From the NCBI RefSeq assembly GCF_055900595.2, contig NZ_CM148325.1: 64,000 nucleotides of DNA. One strand, 5' to 3'. Position numbers and translations under genes: made by a program. The first letter of the stretch is position 1, and every line of letters begins with the position of its first letter. The notes beneath the pieces were generated by a model. It did not search any database and had not been told where the DNA came from. It worked only from the letters and a program-made list of their open reading frames with translations. Positions 2,932-60,696 of this stretch are shown here, in pieces.

Positions 2932-5265
2932 TTGGCCAACTCATCCTCACGTTATTCTGTTCTTACTGCCGCTCACTGGGGGCCCATGCTGGTTGAAACC
3001 GACGGCGAAACCGTGTTTAGCTCGCGTGGCGCGTTAGTCACAGAAATGAAAAACTCCTTGCAGAGTGCGGTTCGCGACCAGGTTCACAGCAAAACACGGG
3101 TACGATTTCCAATGGTGCGCAAGGGCTTTCTCGCGTCACCGGAAAACCCGCAAGGCATTCGTGGGCAGGATGAATTTGTTCGCGTGAGTTGGGATGAGGC
3201 GCTGGATCTCATCCATCATCAACATAAACGCATTCGTGAGGCTTATGGTCCGGCATCGATTTTTGCTGGTTCCTACGGCTGGCGTTCAAACGGCGTGCTG
3301 CATAAGGCCTCGACATTATTACAACGCTATATGGCGCTGGCAGGCGGTTATACCGGGCATCTGGGGGATTATTCGACCGGTGCAGCACAGGCGATCATGC
3401 CGTATGTCGTGGGGGGCAGCGAAGTTTATCAACAGCAAACCAGTTGGCCGCTGGTGCTGGAACATAGCGATGTCGTGGTGTTGTGGAGCGCTAACCCTCT
3501 CAATACGCTGAAAATTGCGTGGAATGCATCCGATGAGCAGGGGCTTTCTTACTTTTCCGCACTGCGTGACAGCGGGAAAAAGCTGATCTGCATTGATCCA
3601 ATGCGATCGGAAACCGTCGATTTCTTTGGCGATAAAATGGAGTGGGTGGCACCGCACATGGGCACCGATGTTGCGCTGATGCTGGGGATCGCCCATACGC
3701 TGGTGGAAAATGGCTGGCACGACGAAGCGTTTCTGGCGCGTTGCACCACAGGTTATGACGTCTTCGCCTCTTATTTGCTGGGCGAGAGTGACGGAATAGC
3801 GAAAAATGCCGAATGGGCGGCAGAAATTTGTGGGATTAACGCAGAAAAAATCCGCGAACTGGCGGCTATTTTTCATCAAAATACCACCATGCTGATGGCT
3901 GGCTGGGGAATGCAGCGCCAGCAGTTTGGTGAGCAAAAACACTGGATGATCGTCACCCTGGCAGCAATGTTAGGGCAAATCGGCACGCCTGGCGGGGGCT
4001 TTGGTCTTTCTTACCATTTTGCCAATGGTGGTAACCCTACGCGCCGCGCTGCGGTGCTTTCATCTATGCAGGGCAGCTTGCCAGGTGGCACCGATGCGGT
4101 AGATAAAATCCCCGTAGCCCGTATTGTTGAAGCTCTGGAAAACCCTGGCGGTGCATACCAACACAATGGCATGAACCGTCACTTCCCGGATATTCGTTTT
4201 ATCTGGTGGGCGGGCGGCGCCAACTTTACTCATCATCAGGATACCAATCGCCTGATTCGTGCCTGGCAAAAACCGGAGCTGGTGGTGATCTCCGAATGCT
4301 TCTGGACGGCAGCGGCGAAACACGCCGATATCGTCCTCCCTGCAACCACCTCGTTTGAGCGTAATGACCTCACCATGACCGGCGATTACAGTAATCAGCA
4401 TCTGGTGCCGATGAAGCAAGTGGTGCCTCCACGTTATGAAGCGCGTAATGATTTTGATGTCTTTGCCGAGTTGAGTGAACGTTGGGAGAAGGGCGGCTAT
4501 GCGCGGTTTACGGAAGGAAAAAGTGAGCTGCAATGGCTGGAAACGTTTTATAACGTTGCACGGCAGCGCGGGGCAAGCCAGCAGGTTGAATTGCCGCCAT
4601 TTGCTGAGTTCTGGGAAGCCAACCAGTTAATTGAGATGCCGGAAAACCCGGACAGCGAGCGGTTTATTCGCTTCGCCGATTTTCGCCGCGATCCGCAGGC
4701 GCATCCATTAAAAACCGCCAGCGGCAAGATTGAAATCTTCTCGCAGCGTATTGCCGATTACGCTTATCCGGATTGCCCTGGGCATCCAATGTGGCTGGAG
4801 CCGGACGAATGGCAGGGCAATGCCGAACCGGAACAGTTGCAGGTACTTTCTGCTCATCCGGCACATCGTCTGCACAGCCAGCTGAATTACAGTTCTCTGC
4901 GCGAATTGTACGCGGTGGCAAATCGTGAGCCTGTCACCATTCATCCTGACGATGCCCAGGCGCGCGGCATACAAGATGGCGATATTGTTCGGTTGTGGAA
5001 CGCACGCGGGCAAATTCTTGCCGGAGCGGTCATTAGCGAGGGAATTAAACCTGGCGTGATTTGCATTCATGAAGGGGCATGGCCGGATCTGGATTTAACC
5101 GCTGACGGTATTTGTAAAAACGGCGCGGTGAACGTTCTGACCAAAGATCTCCCCAGCTCGCGGCTGGGGAATGGCTGTGCGGGTAATACGGCGCTGGCAT
5201 GGCTGGAAAAATACAACGGTCCGGAACTGACACTTACAGCGTTTGAACCACCGGCCAGCTCATAA
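2932..5265 (+). CDS. bisC: biotin sulfoxide reductase, molybdopterin oxidoreductase (DMSO reductase family)
   Basis: 777-aa ORF recognised as BisC; track start is a non-ATG (TTG) codon, so the exact start is uncertain. Confidence 0.88.
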
Positions 5266-5674: not shown

Positions 5675-6234
5675 GGTTTATTTCCCGGATAGCAACAGCA
5701 GCCAACCACATGATCATTCACCAGCCCACATGCCTGCATAAAGGAGTAACAGATTGTGGTACCAACAAACTTAAAACCACGCTTTTTCAGGGCTTTAGAT
5801 AGAGCGTCGGAGGCGGGCGTAGATGTAGGGATTTCGCTCAACGTTGTGGCTTGTGTCACCTGTGGTTGATGATTGACAAACGACCAAACAAAGTCGGCAA
5901 ACGGTTCGCCGTTCTGTTCCATTTGCAGGTACGCTCGCGCATTACCAATAATTGCCTGAATTTTCCCGCGATGGCGGATAATCCCGGCGTCCTGTACCAG
6001 TCTTTCGACGTCCTCTTCCTGCATTGCAGCCACCTTCACCGGATCGAACTGATGAAAGCAGGCGCGATAGTTTTCGCGTTTTTTGAGGACGGTGATCCAC
6101 GATAACCCTGCTTGTTGCCCTTCAAGGCAGATCATTTCGAACAGTTTTTTACTGTCAGTTTCAGGCACGCCCCACTCATTATCATGGTAGGCAATATAAA
6201 GCGGGTCCTGACTCACCCAGCCGCAACGTTCCAT
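5671..6234 (-). CDS. tag: 3-methyladenine DNA glycosylase I
   Basis: ORF-track 5671..6471 trimmed to internal Met (MERCGWVSQDPLYIAYHDNEWGVP...), 187 aa; 4-bp overlap with yiaC start. Confidence 0.9.
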   Translation of the reverse strand: MERCGWVSQDPLYIAYHDNEWGVPETDSKKLFEMICLEGQQAGLSWITVLKKRENYRACFHQFDPVKVAAMQEEDVERLVQDAGIIRHRGKIQAIIGNARAYLQMEQNGEPFADFVWSFVNHQPQVTQATTLSEIPTSTPASDALSKALKKRGFKFVGTTICYSFMQACGLVNDHVVGCCCYPGNKP

Positions 6235-55299: not shown

Positions 55300-56124
55300 A
55301 TGCAATCACTACATGGTAATTGTCTAATTGCGTACGCAAGACATAAATATATTCTCACCATGGTTAATGGTGAATATCGCTATTTTAATGGCGGTGAACT
55401 GGTTTTTGCGGATGCAAGTCAAATTCAAGTGGATAAGTGTGTCGAGAATTTTGTATTAGTTTCAAGGGACACGCTTTCATTATTTCTCCCGATGCTCAAG
55501 GAGGAGGCATTAAATCTTCATGCACATAAAAAAGTTCCTTCGTTACTCGTTCATCACTGTACCAGAGATATTCCTGTTTTTCAGGAGGTTGCGCAACTAT
55601 CGCAGAATAAGAATCTGCGCTATGCAGAAATGCTCCGTAAAAGAGCATTAATCTTTGCGTTGTTATCTGTTTTCCTGGAGGACGAGCAGTTTATACCGCT
55701 GCTTCTGAACGTTTTGCAACCGAACATGCGAACACGAGTTTGTACGGTCATCAATAATAATATCGCCCATGAGTGGACATTAGCCCAAATCGCCAGCGAG
55801 CTGTTGATGAGTTCAAGCCTGTTAAAGAAAAAATTGCGCGAAGAAGGTACGTCATATTCACAGTTGCTTACTGAGTGTAGAATGCAACGTGCTTTGCAAC
55901 TTATTGTTATACATGGTTTTTCAATTAAGCGAGTTGCAGTGTCCTGTGGTTATCACAGCGTGTCGTATTTCATTTACGTTTTTCGAAATTATTATGGGAT
56001 GACGCCCACAGAGTATCAGGAGCGATCGGCACAAGGATTGCCGAACCGTGACTCGGCGGCAAGTATTGTTGCGCAAGGGAATTTTTACGGTACTAACTAT
56101 TCTGCGGAAGAAATAAGATTATAG
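55300..56124 (+). CDS. gadX: AraC-family acid-resistance regulator
   Basis: 274-aa ORF recognised as GadX. Confidence 0.9.
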   Translation: MQSLHGNCLIAYARHKYILTMVNGEYRYFNGGELVFADASQIQVDKCVENFVLVSRDTLSLFLPMLKEEALNLHAHKKVPSLLVHHCTRDIPVFQEVAQLSQNKNLRYAEMLRKRALIFALLSVFLEDEQFIPLLLNVLQPNMRTRVCTVINNNIAHEWTLAQIASELLMSSSLLKKKLREEGTSYSQLLTECRMQRALQLIVIHGFSIKRVAVSCGYHSVSYFIYVFRNYYGMTPTEYQERSAQGLPNRDSAASIVAQGNFYGTNYSAEEIRL

Positions 56125-56140
56125 TTTTTACCCAGACATA

Positions 56141-56245
56141 AAAAAAACCCGGCATAGGGGACCGGGAAGAGGATAGTCTGCCGTCTCCAGACTAATAAAC
56201 CGTTATAACACTCCCTGTTGGCACGGGAAACTTTGTGCTCTCAGT
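56141..56245 (-). ncRNA. gadY: GadY small RNA (approximate ends)
   Basis: minus-strand hairpin CCCGGTCCCCTATGCCGGG followed by an 8-T run lies about 20 nt beyond the gadX stop, matching the known GadY 3' end; the 5' end is estimated from the roughly 105-nt size I recall. Confidence 0.5.
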
Positions 56246-56491
56246 AAGTTAAATATAACTTTTACTGGAGATAAGATCAGCCATTTTTTTATAAACATAA
56301 GCTATGCGCTGTGTGAAAATATATTCTTCTTGCATTTTCTTATTATCAATTAACTGTTATGTCAAACTACTTTTTGGATAACTTTTGGTCCTACCAAATA
56401 TGGCAGTTTATGCACGAAGAAGCGGTCTGGCATCATTTCATTAGTATACTGAAATTGAAATAATCGCAGTAATGAAATATAAGGGATAGTC

Positions 56492-57220
56492 ATGACTCAT
56501 GTCTGCTCGGTGATCCTCGTTCGTCGTTCATTGGATATTCATCATGAACAGCAAAAAATATCGTTGCACAACGAAAGTATTCTACTGCTGGATAAAAATT
56601 TGGCAGACGATTTTGCGTTTTGTTCACCGGATACACGACGACTGGATATCGATGAGCTGACAGTTTGCCATTACTTACAAAATATTCGTCAGTTACCGCG
56701 CAATTTAGGGTTACATAGCAAAGACCGTTTGTTAATTAACCAGTCCCCCCCCATGCCTCTGGTGACGGCGATTTTTGATAGTTTCAATGAATCCGGGGTA
56801 AATTCGCCGATAATGAGCAAGATGCTTTACCTTTCCTGTTTATCAATGTTTTCTCATAAGAAAGAACTTATCCCCTTACTTTTCAATAGTATCAGTACTG
56901 TTTCAGGAAAAGTTGAACGCCTTATTAGCTTTGATATCGCTAAACGTTGGTATCTACGCGATATCGCGGAAAGAATGTATACCAGCGAGAGTCTCATCAA
57001 AAAAAAGTTGCAGGATGAAAATACCTGTTTCAGTAAAATATTACTCGCCTCCAGGATGTCGATGGCCAGACGATTACTCGAGTTACGTCAAATTCCTCTA
57101 CATACTATTGCAGAAAAATGTGGGTATAGCAGTACGTCGTACTTTATAAACACATTTCGACAATATTATGGTGTAACGCCACATCAGTTTGCGCAACATT
57201 CGCCAGGTACCTTTTCCTGA
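56492..57220 (+). CDS. gadW: AraC-family acid-resistance regulator
   Basis: 242-aa ORF recognised as GadW. Confidence 0.9.
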   Translation: MTHVCSVILVRRSLDIHHEQQKISLHNESILLLDKNLADDFAFCSPDTRRLDIDELTVCHYLQNIRQLPRNLGLHSKDRLLINQSPPMPLVTAIFDSFNESGVNSPIMSKMLYLSCLSMFSHKKELIPLLFNSISTVSGKVERLISFDIAKRWYLRDIAERMYTSESLIKKKLQDENTCFSKILLASRMSMARRLLELRQIPLHTIAEKCGYSSTSYFINTFRQYYGVTPHQFAQHSPGTFS

Positions 57221-57582
57221 CATATTTCGCATTTGAATATTGGTCAGGATCTCACACGTGCTTCATGTGAAACTCTTCCCTGATGATTTCTGCCGGGCTA
57301 CCGGCTAGTTCTCTTTCGCAGTATGCCATGCGGTATAGGTATTTTCAGGAGGAAAAGACTCGGCATGTTTGGGATTATTAAGCTGACAATTCATACGATT
57401 ACGGGAATGTGGGTCAGTATTGTGCTGTTCAAATTGATGACGAATGGCTGGAGTGGTTTTTACTTTCAGTGCTGTGTACTAAGCCTGGTATTCCTGACGG
57501 TTAGCTGGTTGTTGAGTGGTGAATGGTTAGCAGGAAAGAGTAAGGCTGAACCCTCACGTTCAACCTTACTCTCATTTACACG

Positions 57583-60500
57583 TTACGCTTTTTTAAAGCG
57601 GGCAAAGAGATGTTCCACTACAACGAAAAAGACTGGAACGAAGTAAATGGCCAGCACTGTTGCGGCAAACATCCCGCCCATCACGCCGGTACCTACCGCG
57701 TTTTGCGCGCCAGAACCTGCGCCGTGGCTGATTACCAGCGGCAACACGCCGAGAATAAAGGCCAGAGAGGTCATCAGGATTGGGCGTAAACGCATCCGCG
57801 CCGCTTCGATGATTGCCTCTATCGGCGTTTTCCCTTCTTTCTGCATCATCTCAACGGCAAATTCGACGATCAGGATGGCGTTCTTGGCGGAAAGCCCGAT
57901 GGTAGTCAGCAAACCAACCTGGAAGTAGACGTCATTACTTAAGCCGCGCAGATCGGTGGCCAGTAATGCGCCAACGACACCTAACGGTACAACCAACATC
58001 ACCGAGAACGGAATTGACCAGCTCTCATAAAGTGCGGCAAGGGCGAGGAACACCACGACCAGTGAAATGGCATACAGCGCGGGAGCCTGGTTTGAGGATA
58101 ACGCTTCCTGATACGACAGTCCGGTCCACGAGTAGCCGACGCCTGCCGGAAGTTTAGCGACCAGGTCTGCCATAAATTTCATAGCGTCACCGGTACTTTT
58201 CCCGGCCGCCGCTTCACCTAAAATCTCCATTGACGGGATGCCGTTGTAGCGTTCCAGTCGCGGTGAACCATAGGTCCATTCGGTAGACGAATAGGCCGAA
58301 AGCGGTGCCATCGTGCCAGAGGCGTTGCGTACATACCACTGGTTGATGTTATCCGGCAACATACGGAACGGCGTGCCTGCCTGGACATACACTTTTTTCA
58401 CCCGCCCCTGGTTGAGGAAGTCGTTCACGTAGCTGCTGCCGAAGGCGGTGGAAATTGTCTGGTTGATATCAGACAGCGTCACACCCATTGCCTCGGCTTT
58501 CGCGGCGTTGACGTTCACTTTGAACATCGGCGTATCTTCCAGTCCGTTCGGGCGTACCCCGGTGACCTGATTCGGTGATTGCGCTGCCAGTGATAATAGC
58601 TCGTTTCGCGCCTGGGTCAGTTTTTCGTGCCCTAAGTTGCCGTTGTCCAGCAGTTCCATATCAAAACCTGACGCGGTACCCAGTTCAGCCACCGCGGGTA
58701 AGTTGAACGGGAAGACGACGGCTTTATTGATACTGCTTAACGCAATCATTGCCCGCTGAATGATCGCGGTAACCGAGTTTTCCTCACCGACACGTTCAGA
58801 CCACGGTTTGAGGCTGATAAACGCCAGACCGTTGTTTTGCCCCTGGCCACTGAAGCCAAAGCCGCCAACGGTAAACACCGACTGAACATTATCTTTCTCT
58901 TTTGTCAGATAATAATCAGTCACCTGTTGCAGCACTTTCGTGGTGTTAACCATGGTTGCACCGGAAGGTAACTGCGCGGTGGTCATAAATACCCCCTGAT
59001 CCTCTTCTGGTAAGAAAGAGGTCGGCGTACGCAGGAACAGCACTGCCATCCCGGCGCAAATCAGCAGGTAGACCACCATGTAGCGACCGGTACAACGCAA
59101 CAGCGAGCGGGTGCTATCGGTATAGTGATGAGTCGATTTTTCAAACAGCGTGTTGAAGCGTGCGAACAGGGCGTTAGGTTTGTGACCGCCTTCCGGCGCG
59201 GCTTTCAGAATGGTGGCGCACAGGGCAGGGGTCAGGCTCATTGCGACAAATACTGAAAGCAGCATCGAGGAGATCAGCGTGATGGAGAACTGACGATAAA
59301 TTTCCCCGGTCGCGCCGCTCATAAAGGCCATTGGCATAAACACCGCGGAAAGCACAACGGCAATCCCGACCAGAGCGCGTTGGATTTGCCCCATGGATTT
59401 ATGCGTTGCTTCCTTCGGCGGCAGTTTATCCTCCGCTATCACGCGCTCGACGTTTTCTACCACCACGATGGCGTCATCCACCAACAACCCTATCGCCAGC
59501 ACCATCCCGAACATGGTGAGGGTGTTGATGGTGAAACCGACCGCCGACAAGATCGCAAACGTCCCGAGAATAACCACCGGTACGGCAATCGTCGGGATGA
59601 TTGTGGCACGGAAATTCTGCAAAAACAGATACATGACCAGGAAGACGAGGATGATAGCCTCAACCAGTGTTTTGAAAACTTCCTGAATAGAAATTTCGAT
59701 AAACGGCGTCGTGTCGTAAGGATAAACCGTCTTCAGACTTGCGGGGAAATAGGCTGATAGGCGGTTTAGCTCCTCTTTGACTGCCCGTGAGGTATCCAGG
59801 GCATTTGCTCCGGTAGCCAGTTTGATGGCGATCCCGGCAGCAGGTTTGCCGTTATAGCGCGCCACGGTGGAATAATCTTCCGCCCCAAGTTCGACGCGGG
59901 CGACATCACGCAGCAGCACTTGCGAGCCATCTTGCTGAACTTTCAACAGGATTTTGCCAAATTCTTCCGGCGTTTGCAGACGCGTCTGCACAATGATCGA
60001 GGCGTTCAGTTGCTGGTCTGCCGCCTGTGGCATGCCACCCAGTTGACCACCAGAAATCTGGTTGTTTTGCACCTTAATCTGGGAAATAACATCGGAAGGT
60101 ACCAGGTTGTATTTATTGAGTTTTTGCGGGTCCAGCCAGATACGCATGGCATACTCGGAACCAAAGAGTTGTACGCTACCAACGCCCGCGGTACGGCTTA
60201 GCGGGTCTTTGATATTAGACGCTACATAGTCCGCGATATCGTACTGGTTGAGACTGCCGTTATCAGAAATGAACGCCGCTACCATCAGGATATTACTGCT
60301 CGACTTATCGACGCTAATCCCCTGCTGCTGCACCGCTTCAGGTAATGAAGGCATAGCGAGTTGCAGTTTATTTTGCACCTGAACCTGCGCGATATCAGGC
60401 GATGTCCCCGTCTCAAAGGTCAGAGTGATGGAGGCATTACCCGCCGCATCGCTGGTTGAAGACATGTACATCAGGCCATCAAGCCCATTCATATTTTGCT

Positions 60501-60696
60501 CAATCACCTGAGTGACCGAGTCTTCTACCGTTTGCGCATCGGCACCCGGATAGGTTGCGCTGACGGTAATGGTTGGTGGCGCAATCTGCGGATATTGCGC
60601 AACCGGTAAGTTCATGATCGCCAGACCACCTGCAAGCATCATAATAATGGCAAGTACCCAGGCAAAAACCGGGCGATCAATAAAATAGTTAGCCAT
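57583..60696 (-). CDS. mdtF: RND multidrug efflux pump, inner-membrane transporter
   Basis: 1037-aa [27 protein letters not shown]..., AcrB family. Confidence 0.93.

What the first reader, a model, noticed from the sequence alone, without database searches (positions are those of the whole stretch)
57323..57646. Candidate small membrane-protein ORF downstream of gadW overlapping the mdtF 3' end (weak)
An AGGAGG Shine-Dalgarno at 57347-57352 is followed 12 nt later by ATG 57365, opening a 93-codon ORF (MFGIIKLTIHTITGMWVSIVLFKLMTNGWSGFYFQCCVLSLVFLTVSWLL…) with two hydrophobic segments. Against it: the spacing is on the long side, the ORF runs through a strong palindrome (AGAGTAAGGCTGAACCCTCACGTTCAACCTTACTCT, about 57533-57568) that is probably the convergent gadW/mdtF terminator, its last 21 codons are antisense to mdtF, and I do not recall an annotated gene here. 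Most likely it is spurious, but the strong SD makes it worth one look.
Basis: seen in the sequence. Interest (0 to 1): 0.2.

Follow-up and report, generated by a model that had tools for sequence, protein, structure and literature searches.

The report
Acid-induced small membrane protein sORF15
The flagged 93-codon ORF between gadW and mdtF is a real, already published (2023, "sORF15") acid-induced small membrane-protein gene of E. coli that reference annotation still omits, and cross-species comparison here shows its two-helix core is under purifying selection.

Summary
In detail: AGGAGG at 57347-57352, ATG at 57365, a 93-codon ORF to 57646, two hydrophobic segments, a palindrome inside it (really 57537-57572) and a 64-nt antisense overlap with mdtF. 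The ORF is the window's copy of sORF15 of Schumacher et al. 2023 (PMC10746267; NC_000913.3:3663464-3663745, minus strand). They found it by Ribo-seq in the gadW 3' UTR, report about 18-fold induction at pH 4.4, and detected it as a FLAG fusion. RefSeq K-12 and PGAP leave the interval unannotated.

New here: the frame is intact, with no indel in 57365-57582, in 11 E. coli and 6 divergent Escherichia lineages. dN/dS is 0.07-0.28 (gadW 0.06-0.11), against 0.3-3.4 in the other sense frames. The wobble-sharing antisense frame has conserved stops. E. fergusonii has a syntenic 54-aa ortholog (49% identity over 41 residues) that ends right after the second helix. The conserved unit is therefore a ~52-aa two-TM hairpin with an invariant GWSGF-F-CC motif; the basic tail that runs through the mdtF terminator hairpin and into mdtF varies between lineages. 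No homolog was found outside Escherichia. Function is unknown. Already known; modest interest.

The parts
57365..57646 (+). sORF15 coding sequence, 93 aa, ATG to TAA
   Evidence: Reading of the sequence. It matches the K-12 sORF15 of PMC10746267 Table S7 (NC_000913.3:3663464-3663745, minus strand) apart from R79C. The frame is intact in 11 E. coli and 6 divergent Escherichia lineages.
57339..57357 (+). Conserved translation-initiation block GTATTTTCAGGAGGAAAAG, containing the SD AGGAGG at 57347-57352
   Evidence: Invariant in all 8 lineages aligned, while the upstream spacer 57221-57339 falls to 74-76% identity in the most divergent ones. The published FLAG construct with only 15 native nt upstream of the ATG yielded protein.
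57365..57520 (+). Conserved two-helix core, residues 1-52: TM1 about 57374-57439, loop and motif NGWSG 57443-57457, TM2 57458-57514
   Evidence: Hydropathy. AF2 helices at residues 2-26 and 31-58. omega 0.00-0.22 over codons 1-57. The 54-aa E. fergusonii ortholog covers exactly this part, 20/41 identical. Invariant G28 W29 S30 G31 F32 F34 C36 C37.
57521..57646 (+). Basic C-terminal tail, residues 53-93 (11 K/R against 2 D/E over residues 51-93); variable between lineages
   Evidence: Absent in E. fergusonii. Replaced by another frame in Escherichia sp. E2593 and in minority E. coli alleles of 76 and 54 aa. Residues 73-93 are antisense to mdtF with shared wobble positions, so their conservation is not independent evidence.
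57537..57572 (-). Conserved hairpin inside the ORF; most likely the intrinsic terminator of mdtF (gadE-mdtEF operon)
   Evidence: 16 perfect base pairs in the mdtF-sense RNA, followed by UUCCUGCU. In the gadW-sense RNA there is a C.A mismatch and no U-tract. L015 has the compensatory pair 57541 T>C with 57568 A>G. The loop is variable and the stem conserved.
57583..57646 (.). 64-nt overlap of the sORF15 3' end with the 3' end of mdtF (opposite strands, shared third codon positions)
   Evidence: Coordinates. Every substitution seen here falls on the shared wobble position.
56492..57220 (+). gadW, the upstream gene whose transcript is reported to carry sORF15 in its 3' UTR
   Evidence: Annotation transfer from K-12 and other genomes. 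The paper places sORF15 in the gadXW transcriptional unit. No promoter-like site was found on the + strand in 56900-57900.
57583..60696 (-). mdtF, a convergent RND efflux permease gene

Best explanation
The ORF 57365-57646 is the window's allele of sORF15, a protein-coding gene for a small inner-membrane protein at the 3' end of the gadXW transcription unit of the Escherichia acid fitness island.

Shown, by the cited paper in K-12: ribosome footprints cover the ORF. Footprints and RNA rise about 16-18-fold at pH 4.4 with unchanged translation efficiency. The native initiation region drives synthesis of a FLAG-tagged product from a plasmid.

Shown here: the SD-ATG block and the reading frame are conserved across Escherichia. 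Substitutions are biased to synonymous sites to the same degree as in gadW. E. fergusonii has a syntenic ortholog.

Inferred:
- The gene is transcribed by read-through from gadW, so it is induced with the Gad regulon.
- The product inserts as a helical hairpin (TM1 about residues 4-25, TM2 about 32-50). A six-residue periplasmic turn carries the invariant (N/H)GWSG motif, and both termini are cytoplasmic (positive-inside rule; the tail has 11 K/R).
- The functional unit is the ~52-residue two-helix core. The tail exists because, in the E. coli/E. marmotae lineage, the frame runs on through the mdtF terminator hairpin into the antisense of mdtF, where shared wobble positions keep it open.

Most speculative step: like other bacterial small membrane proteins, it probably acts by binding and modulating a larger membrane protein under acid stress. 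The convergent neighbour MdtF (an RND pump) and the antiporter GadC are the obvious candidates.
For: Identity with sORF15:
- Coordinates and sequence match Table S7. I derived the coordinate map independently.
- Published values: Ribo-seq log2FC 4.21 (padj 1e-38), RNA log2FC 4.03, TE log2FC 0.27; western blot of pBAD24-sORF15:3xFLAG; DeepTMHMM predicts two TM helices.

Selection:
- NG86 omega over 57365-57580 is 0.07-0.28 in seven comparisons (for example L019 25 synonymous/11 nonsynonymous, L015 23/15). gadW gives 0.06-0.11. The other two sense frames give 0.3-3.4.
- Relocation null p values: 5e-5 (L019), 1e-4 (L015), 0.003 (L012), 0.008 (L017).
- Variable columns by codon position are 22/10/38, chi-square p = 2e-4.
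- No indel falls in 57365-57582 in any lineage, whereas the upstream spacer has several, including an 11-nt deletion.
- The antisense frame that shares wobble positions has conserved stops in all lineages.

E. fergusonii ortholog:
- P0083, 54 aa, lies between the GadW ortholog (62% identity) and the MdtF ortholog (93%).
- 20/41 identical, BLASTP E 3e-13; hmmsearch E 9e-7 against 1.84 billion proteins.
- Codon-position differences are 22/9/35 of 49; dN is 0.39 with dS saturated. The only alignable DNA in the whole intergenic region is the 22 nt that encode NGWSGFY.

Topology and abundance:
-.
- The K-12 and window alleles each occur on at least 1000 contigs.
Against: - No function, phenotype or chromosomal-level protein detection is published in the library searched. 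The western blot used an arabinose-induced plasmid.
- SD-to-ATG spacing of 12 nt is long. The E. fergusonii ortholog has a GTG start and no recognisable SD.
- The ORF runs through a stable hairpin (about -23 kcal/mol in a 76-nt context that also includes a second small hairpin) and its stop lies 74 nt beyond it. If gadW transcripts end or are trimmed at the hairpin, the message has no stop codon. I found no 3'-end mapping data for this locus.
- TM1 is only marginally hydrophobic (1.68) and AF2 confidence is low (pLDDT 62.9).
- Disrupted alleles exist in a minority of strains: an IS3 insertion, and 46-aa and 54-aa truncations.
- The lineages used for dN/dS share branches, so the pairwise p values are not independent.
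- The partner-binding step has no direct evidence.
Confidence: 0.82

Rival explanations
1. The ORF is spurious. Ribosomes load by chance on an SD-like sequence in the gadW 3' UTR. The footprints are translational noise, and the sequence is conserved for other reasons (a 3' UTR regulatory element, the mdtF terminator, mdtF itself).
For: - SD-ATG patterns and ORFs of this length are at chance frequency in the window.
- RefSeq and PGAP do not call the gene.
- Pfam and NCBIfam give no hit.
- The tail's conservation is indeed explained by mdtF and the hairpin.
- sORF14, found next door in the same study, is not conserved, so footprints alone are weak evidence.
Against: - Frame-specific excess of synonymous change and the 22/10/38 codon-position pattern in the part that overlaps nothing.
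- No indels there, in contrast to the upstream spacer.
- The SD block is invariant.
- The E. fergusonii ortholog keeps the frame at 55% nucleotide identity, where the rest of the spacer is unalignable.
Confidence: 0.05
2. The selected function is an RNA one, with translation incidental or merely regulatory. The 3' part of the gadW transcript is complementary to the 3' end and terminator of the convergent mdtF transcript. It would act as a cis-antisense or 3'-UTR-derived regulator, for example through RNase III processing as with GadY and gadXW.
For: - The convergent transcripts must overlap by at least the hairpin plus 64 nt.
- The hairpin shows a compensatory change and wobble-compatible changes.
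- This locus already uses antisense RNA control: GadY lies at 56135-56248.
- Both operons are acid-induced (established knowledge of the Gad regulon).
Against: - RNA-level selection does not produce a three-periodic substitution pattern or low omega in one frame only over 57365-57536, which lies upstream of the overlap and the hairpin.
- In E. fergusonii the ORF is kept but the hairpin sequence and the overlap are different or absent.
- No Rfam family matches.
- This reading can coexist with a coding function (a dual-function mRNA) but cannot replace it.
Confidence: 0.08
3. It is a type I toxin-like or membrane-perturbing small hydrophobic peptide, not a specific partner-binding modulator.
For: - Small, hydrophobic, restricted to one genus, no detectable family.
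- Its 3' end is covered by an antisense transcript (mdtF).
- Disrupted alleles occur in some strains.
Against: - It is conserved at a fixed syntenic position within a stress regulon rather than being multicopy or mobile: median one place per genome.
- The authors induced it from pBAD for 1 h and recovered protein; the passages I read mention no toxicity.
- No dedicated antitoxin sRNA or promoter is evident.
- Purifying selection is comparable to gadW.
Confidence: 0.05

Closest known systems
sORF15 of E. coli K-12 (Schumacher et al. 2023, mSystems 8:e01037-23, PMC10746267)
   Same: It is the same gene: same position between gadW and mdtF, same start, stop and SD, and 92 of 93 residues identical (R79 here, C79 in K-12)..
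   Different: Only the allele differs. This window's lineage also has an extra in-frame upstream ATG at 57323 that other strains lack. The paper reports homologs of over 80% identity only and names other genera. Here the family is traced to E. marmotae, cryptic clades and a 54-aa E. fergusonii ortholog, and no credible member was found outside Escherichia/Shigella.
AcrZ, the 49-aa accessory protein of the AcrB RND pump (established knowledge)
   Same: A small inner-membrane protein encoded in a stress regulon, near or co-regulated with an RND permease. This is the best precedent for the idea that sORF15 modulates MdtF.
   Different: AcrZ has one TM helix and sORF15 has two. There is no sequence similarity: no Pfam family, AcrZ included, matched at E up to 10. 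AcrZ is not adjacent to acrB. Binding of sORF15 to MdtF is untested.
Small membrane-protein modulators of transporters and sensors in enterobacteria (MgtS, MgrB, KdpF, SgrT; established knowledge)
   Same: Size class, membrane location, stress-specific induction, and absence from automated annotation until ribosome profiling.
   Different: No homology to any of them. No partner or phenotype is known for sORF15.
HdeD, the acid-resistance inner-membrane protein of the same island (DUF308)
   Same: A membrane protein of the acid fitness island, induced with the Gad regulon. It is present in the syntenic E. fergusonii locus.
   Different: HdeD is about 190 aa, has multiple TM helices and belongs to a Pfam family. 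sORF15 is an orphan two-TM hairpin.

Membership tests
sORF15 (Schumacher et al. 2023) | Located at NC_000913.3:3663464-3663745 (minus strand) with the published nucleotide and protein sequence | tested here: met
   The window-to-K-12 coordinate map gives exactly these coordinates. The K-12 translation equals the Table S7 sequence. The window allele differs by R79C.
sORF15 (Schumacher et al. 2023) | Ribosome footprints across the ORF, induced at pH 4.4 | not testable with these tools
   Taken from the paper for K-12 (log2FC 4.21, padj 1e-38). No raw profiling data are available here, and none exist for the window's strain.
sORF15 (Schumacher et al. 2023) | Two predicted transmembrane helices | tested here: met
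   Kyte-Doolittle peaks of 1.68 and 1.95. AF2 helices at residues 2-26 and 31-58, at low confidence.
Protein-coding gene under purifying selection | dN/dS well below 1 in this frame and not in the alternative frames | tested here: met
   omega 0.07-0.28 against 0.3-3.4. Relocation-null p down to 5e-5. The wobble-sharing antisense frame is excluded by conserved stops.
Protein-coding gene under purifying selection | Frame and start conserved in syntenic orthologs of other species | tested here: met
   Six divergent Escherichia lineages and E. fergusonii. The start in E. fergusonii is GTG and the C-terminal tail is not conserved.
AcrZ-like RND pump accessory protein | Sequence membership of the AcrZ family | tested here: not met
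   No Pfam or NCBIfam family matched at E up to 10.
AcrZ-like RND pump accessory protein | Physical binding to the RND permease and an effect on its substrate range | not testable with these tools
   Needs co-purification or two-hybrid assays and efflux assays.
Intrinsic (rho-independent) terminator at 57537-57572 | Stable stem-loop followed directly by a U-rich tract, on the strand transcribed | tested here: met
   Met on the minus (mdtF) strand: a perfect 16-bp stem followed by UUCCUGCU. Not met on the plus (gadW/sORF15) strand: C.A mismatch, followed by CAUUUACACG.
Type I toxin-antitoxin small hydrophobic toxin | Dedicated cis-antisense or divergent sRNA antitoxin, and toxicity on overexpression | tested here: inconclusive
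   No Rfam sRNA in the interval and no promoter-like site. Toxicity was not assayed here. The passages I read of the paper's 1-h pBAD induction mention none.

The most novel reading that the evidence does not exclude
The conserved ~52-residue two-helix core of sORF15 is a dedicated accessory subunit of an acid-resistance membrane machine. The candidates are the MdtEF-TolC pump encoded convergently (an AcrZ-like role with a different fold) or the GadC antiporter. The E. coli tail is a recent C-terminal extension, created by overprinting onto the mdtF terminator and the antisense of mdtF. That arrangement would also couple sORF15 translation to convergent mdtF transcription.
Probability: 0.2. 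Interest if true: 0.55.

Novelty: already known. Interest (0 to 1): 0.3.

Why it matters
The gene is missing from RefSeq K-12 and from every PGAP annotation sampled, even though it sits inside one of the most studied stress loci of E. coli. The published evidence rested on ribosome profiling and a plasmid-borne tagged construct. The comparative evidence here (frame-specific purifying selection and an E. fergusonii ortholog) supports annotating it.

The analysis also narrows where function should be sought: the two-helix core and the GWSGF-F-CC motif, not the tail. It flags an unresolved design problem, an ORF that must be read through the neighbouring gene's terminator hairpin. If the protein turns out to modulate MdtEF or GadC, it would add a component to the acid-resistance and efflux network. 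As a finding from this scan it is a rediscovery, not a discovery.

Tried and rejected
- Pfam and NCBIfam scans of the 107-aa version: no family at E up to 10.
- Rfam scan of 56000-57800 at E up to 1: only GadY plus two chance-level hits inside gadW; nothing in the gadW-mdtF interval.
- 3'-end mapping: the supplements of Adams et al. 2021 held here contain no entry for gadW or coordinates beginning 36634 or 36635, so the position of the transcript's 3' end relative to the hairpin stays open. A literature search for Term-seq with gadW gave nothing relevant.
- Follow-up literature on sORF15: none for E. coli in the held library.
- The upstream start ATG 57323 (107 aa) was rejected. It is TTG in all other lineages, the upstream region has indels, and a 15-nt native leader sufficed for expression.
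- The antisense frame with equally low omega was rejected because it has conserved stops.
- P0028 (72% identity) was rejected as a divergent homolog. Its differences are all of the C-to-T type at the codon level (T to I/M, A to V, P/S to L/F), so I infer that it comes from a bisulfite-converted or similarly damaged read set.
- The GadW-anchored scan of 100,044 species genomes used exact peptide words and missed E. fergusonii, so it cannot be read as proof of absence in E. albertii or elsewhere.
- An mdtF control line was misaligned by one codon and is not used.
- Fold search was not run, because the AF2 model is of low confidence (pLDDT 62.9).
Full report
**Locus.** The window carries the E. 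coli acid fitness island in reverse orientation relative to K-12.
- gadX is at 55300-56124 (+), GadY at 56135-56248 (-), gadW at 56492-57220 (+) and mdtF at 57583-60696 (-).
- The finding lies in the 362-bp gadW-mdtF gap and runs 64 nt into the 3' end of mdtF.

**Observation.**
- AGGAGG is at 57347-57352 and ATG at 57365, 12 nt later.
- The ORF has 93 codons and ends with TAA at 57644-57646.
- It has two hydrophobic segments and a 21-codon antisense overlap with mdtF.
- It contains a 36-nt palindrome, which lies at 57537-57572 rather than 57533-57568.
It is TTG in ten other E. coli and in all divergent lineages.
- In a single genome none of this exceeds chance. The SD-ATG pattern occurs 3 times against 3.4 expected. 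There are 75 ATG-ORFs of at least 93 codons in the window. An obviously spurious 93-aa ORF lies immediately downstream.

**Annotation.**
- RefSeq K-12 MG1655 has no feature in the gap. PGAP annotates only mdtF under the query in all 40 genomes sampled from 5,415 matching records.
- Pfam and NCBIfam give no match.
- The exact protein is nevertheless present on at least 1000 contigs for both the K-12 and the window alleles. GenBank and TrEMBL label it hypothetical or uncharacterised in E. coli, Shigella flexneri and S. boydii, and a more divergent cluster carries the same label in E. marmotae.

**It is already published.** Schumacher et al. 2023 (mSystems 8:e01037-23, PMC10746267) profiled ribosomes in K-12 at pH 7.6, 5.8 and 4.4.
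- By inspecting the gadW 3' UTR by hand, they found sORF15 (93 aa) at NC_000913.3:3663464-3663745 on the minus strand. These are the coordinates I had derived from the window-to-K-12 map, and the sequence is identical to the K-12 translation.
- At pH 4.4 versus 7.6 they report RPF log2FC 4.21 (padj 1e-38), RNA log2FC 4.03 and unchanged translation efficiency.
- They describe constant coverage across the ORF, two TM helices by DeepTMHMM, and a band for pBAD24-sORF15:3xFLAG carrying 15 nt of native leader.
- No function was shown. They suggest an association with GadC or MdtF.
- I found no later E. coli work on it in the held library.

**Comparative test (new here).**
- Sample: ten further E. 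coli loci from across the identity ranking, and six divergent lineages. The divergent lineages are Escherichia sp. MOD1-EC7003, E. coli SCPM-O-B-8794, E. coli E69, Escherichia sp. E1V33, E. marmotae CP025979 and Escherichia sp. E2593.
- The frame from ATG 57365 is open in all of them.
- No indel falls in 57365-57582, whereas the 144-nt spacer upstream has several, including an 11-nt deletion.
- The block GTATTTTCAGGAGGAAAAG is invariant, while the rest of the spacer falls to 74-76% identity.
- Nei-Gojobori omega over the 72 codons that overlap nothing is 0.07-0.28. L019 has 25 synonymous and 11 nonsynonymous changes with dS 0.92; L015 has 23 and 15. The same loci give 0.06-0.11 for gadW and 0.01-0.02 for mdtF. 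The two other sense frames give 0.3-3.4.
- Relocating the observed substitutions to random positions of the same base gives a null synonymous fraction of about 0.31, against 0.53-0.72 observed. The p values are 5e-5, 1e-4, 0.008 and 0.003 for L019, L015, L017 and L012.
- Variable columns by codon position are 22/10/38 (p = 2e-4).
- The antisense frame that shares wobble positions shows a similarly low omega, as it must. It is the read-through frame of mdtF and has conserved stops in every lineage.
- These comparisons share branches, so the p values are not independent. The direction is the same in every lineage.

**Contrast.** sORF14 (57267-57308), reported in the same paper, fails the same test. 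Its start is lost in two lineages, its length ranges from 6 to 33 aa, and indels disrupt it.

**Remote homology.**
- An exhaustive profile search of 1.84 billion representative proteins returned 19 hits. All are fragments or frameshift chimeras of the Escherichia protein except one, P0083 (54 aa, E 9e-7).
- P0083 is from E. fergusonii ATCC 35469 and is syntenic. It lies 20 nt downstream of a GadW ortholog (62% identity) and upstream of convergent mdtF (93% identity), mdtE, gadE and hdeD.
- It shares 20 of 41 residues with the window protein (BLASTP E 3e-13).
- At 55% nucleotide identity, differences by codon position are 22/9/35 of 49 codons. dN is 0.39 with dS saturated. The only piece of the whole intergenic region that blastn can still align is the 22 nt encoding NGWSGFY.
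- The E. fergusonii ORF stops right after the second helix, before an unrelated GC hairpin, and does not overlap mdtF.
- A second profile search including it found no other genus.
- The paper's hits in Vibrio, Klebsiella, Salmonella and Enterococcus at over 80% identity are therefore most simply mislabelled or contaminated records. This is an inference. It fits the UniRef cluster of the window allele, which has a Gammaproteobacteria-level common ancestor for sequences 100% identical.

**Anatomy of the protein.**
- Invariant residues across all lineages, E. fergusonii included, are M1, I5, K6, T13, V17, V20, L21, L24, G28, W29, S30, G31, F32, F34, C36, C37, L41 and L44.
- AF2 gives helices at 2-26, 31-58 and 65-87 at low confidence (pLDDT 62.9).
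- Residues 51-93 carry 11 K/R against 2 D/E. By the positive-inside rule this puts the C-terminus, and hence also the N-terminus, in the cytoplasm, with the short GWSG turn in the periplasm (inference).

**The tail is not part of the conserved unit.**
- It is missing in E. fergusonii.
- It is replaced by another frame in Escherichia sp. E2593 through a T6-to-T7 change, which also lengthens MdtF to 1043 aa.
- It is replaced or truncated in minority E. coli alleles of 76 and 54 aa.
- The last 21 codons are conserved only because they are the antisense of mdtF with coincident wobble positions.

**The hairpin.**
- In the mdtF-sense RNA the palindrome forms 16 perfect pairs followed by UUCCUGCU, and the pattern scan flags it as terminator-like. 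In the gadW/sORF15-sense RNA it has a C.A mismatch and no U-tract.
- Across lineages the loop varies while the stem is kept. There is one compensatory pair in L015 (57541 T>C with 57568 A>G, both synonymous in sORF15), and one change in L019 that is G.U-compatible only on the mdtF strand.
- I read it as the mdtF terminator, which the sORF15 frame happens to traverse.
- Whether gadW-sORF15 transcripts extend past it to the stop codon at 57644 is not known. The one 3'-end data set I could query has no entry for this locus.

**Mechanism, with its status.**
- Shown: the ORF is translated and acid-induced (paper); the frame is under purifying selection and has a syntenic ortholog (here).
- Inferred: expression is by read-through from gadW. 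No promoter-like site was found on the + strand, the RNA fold change is of similar magnitude to GadW's reported fold change of 3.03, and the paper places it in the same transcriptional unit. Also inferred: an N-in/C-in helical hairpin, and that the functional unit is the core.
- Speculative: modulation of a larger membrane protein such as MdtF or GadC, by analogy with AcrZ, MgtS and similar small proteins. It is not a sequence member of any of those families.

**Verdict.** The object is an already published, still unannotated small membrane-protein gene of unknown function.

Noticed in passing
window 57267-57308 (+): sORF14 (13 aa, GTG start), reported with sORF15 in PMC10746267 as a high-confidence candidate, is not conserved. 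The start is GTA in two lineages, the length ranges from 6 to 33 aa, the stop is lost, and indels disrupt it.
   Followed up: yes
window 57292-57305 (+), with tail to about 57319: A small GC stem GCCGG/CCGGC followed by UAGUUCUCUUUCGC lies 72 nt after the gadW stop. The stem is kept and the loop varies in most lineages; it is partly deleted in L012. The pattern scan flags it as terminator-like. It could be a weak gadW terminator or attenuator that sets how much transcript reaches sORF15.
   Followed up: partly
L019 (Escherichia sp. E2593, PDII01000009.1) 625-1353 and 1501-1791: In this genome gadW is split into 168-aa and 74-aa pieces by a frameshift, yet the small ORF is intact. A T7 run in place of T6 gives the ORF a different tail and makes MdtF 1043 aa. 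I could not tell whether these are real changes or assembly errors.
   Followed up: partly
L003 (E. coli SW070912, NZ_CM129860.1) 3279-4507; corresponds to window ~57487: An IS3-family element is inserted inside the small ORF, within the second helix, in one wastewater isolate.
   Followed up: no
window 57323: This window's lineage (only 15 of 5,415 records are at least 99% identical over the interval) has ATG where other E. coli have TTG. This creates a possible 107-aa N-terminally extended form that has no SD and is not conserved.
   Followed up: yes
proteins P0024, P0032, P0034, P0036 (76 aa), P0039 (54 aa), P0087 (46 aa): Minority E. coli alleles carry frameshifts. The 76-aa (after residue ~57) and 54-aa forms keep the two-helix core and lose or replace the tail. 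The 46-aa form breaks the second helix. Some come from complete genomes.
   Followed up: partly
protein P0028 (Logan assemblies, 30 contigs): A 72%-identical 'homolog' whose differences are all consistent with C-to-T conversion at the DNA level. It looks like an assembly of bisulfite-treated or deaminated reads rather than a divergent gene.
   Followed up: no
PMC10746267 Fig. S9C; UniRef cluster A0A0J2E9I0_ECOLX: The paper lists homologs of over 80% identity in Vibrio, Klebsiella, Salmonella and Enterococcus. Profile searches of 1.84 and 5.8 billion proteins, and a GadW-anchored scan of 100,044 species genomes, found the gene only in Escherichia/Shigella. Those records are probably mislabelled or contaminated.
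   Followed up: partly
L020 (E. fergusonii CU928158.2) 6169-6184: In E. fergusonii the mdtF terminator is a different hairpin, GGCCGGTTTCCCGGCC, with a U-rich tail on the mdtF strand. It resembles the small GC stem that in E. coli lies upstream of sORF15 (57292-57305). This hints at a rearrangement of the spacer.
   Followed up: no
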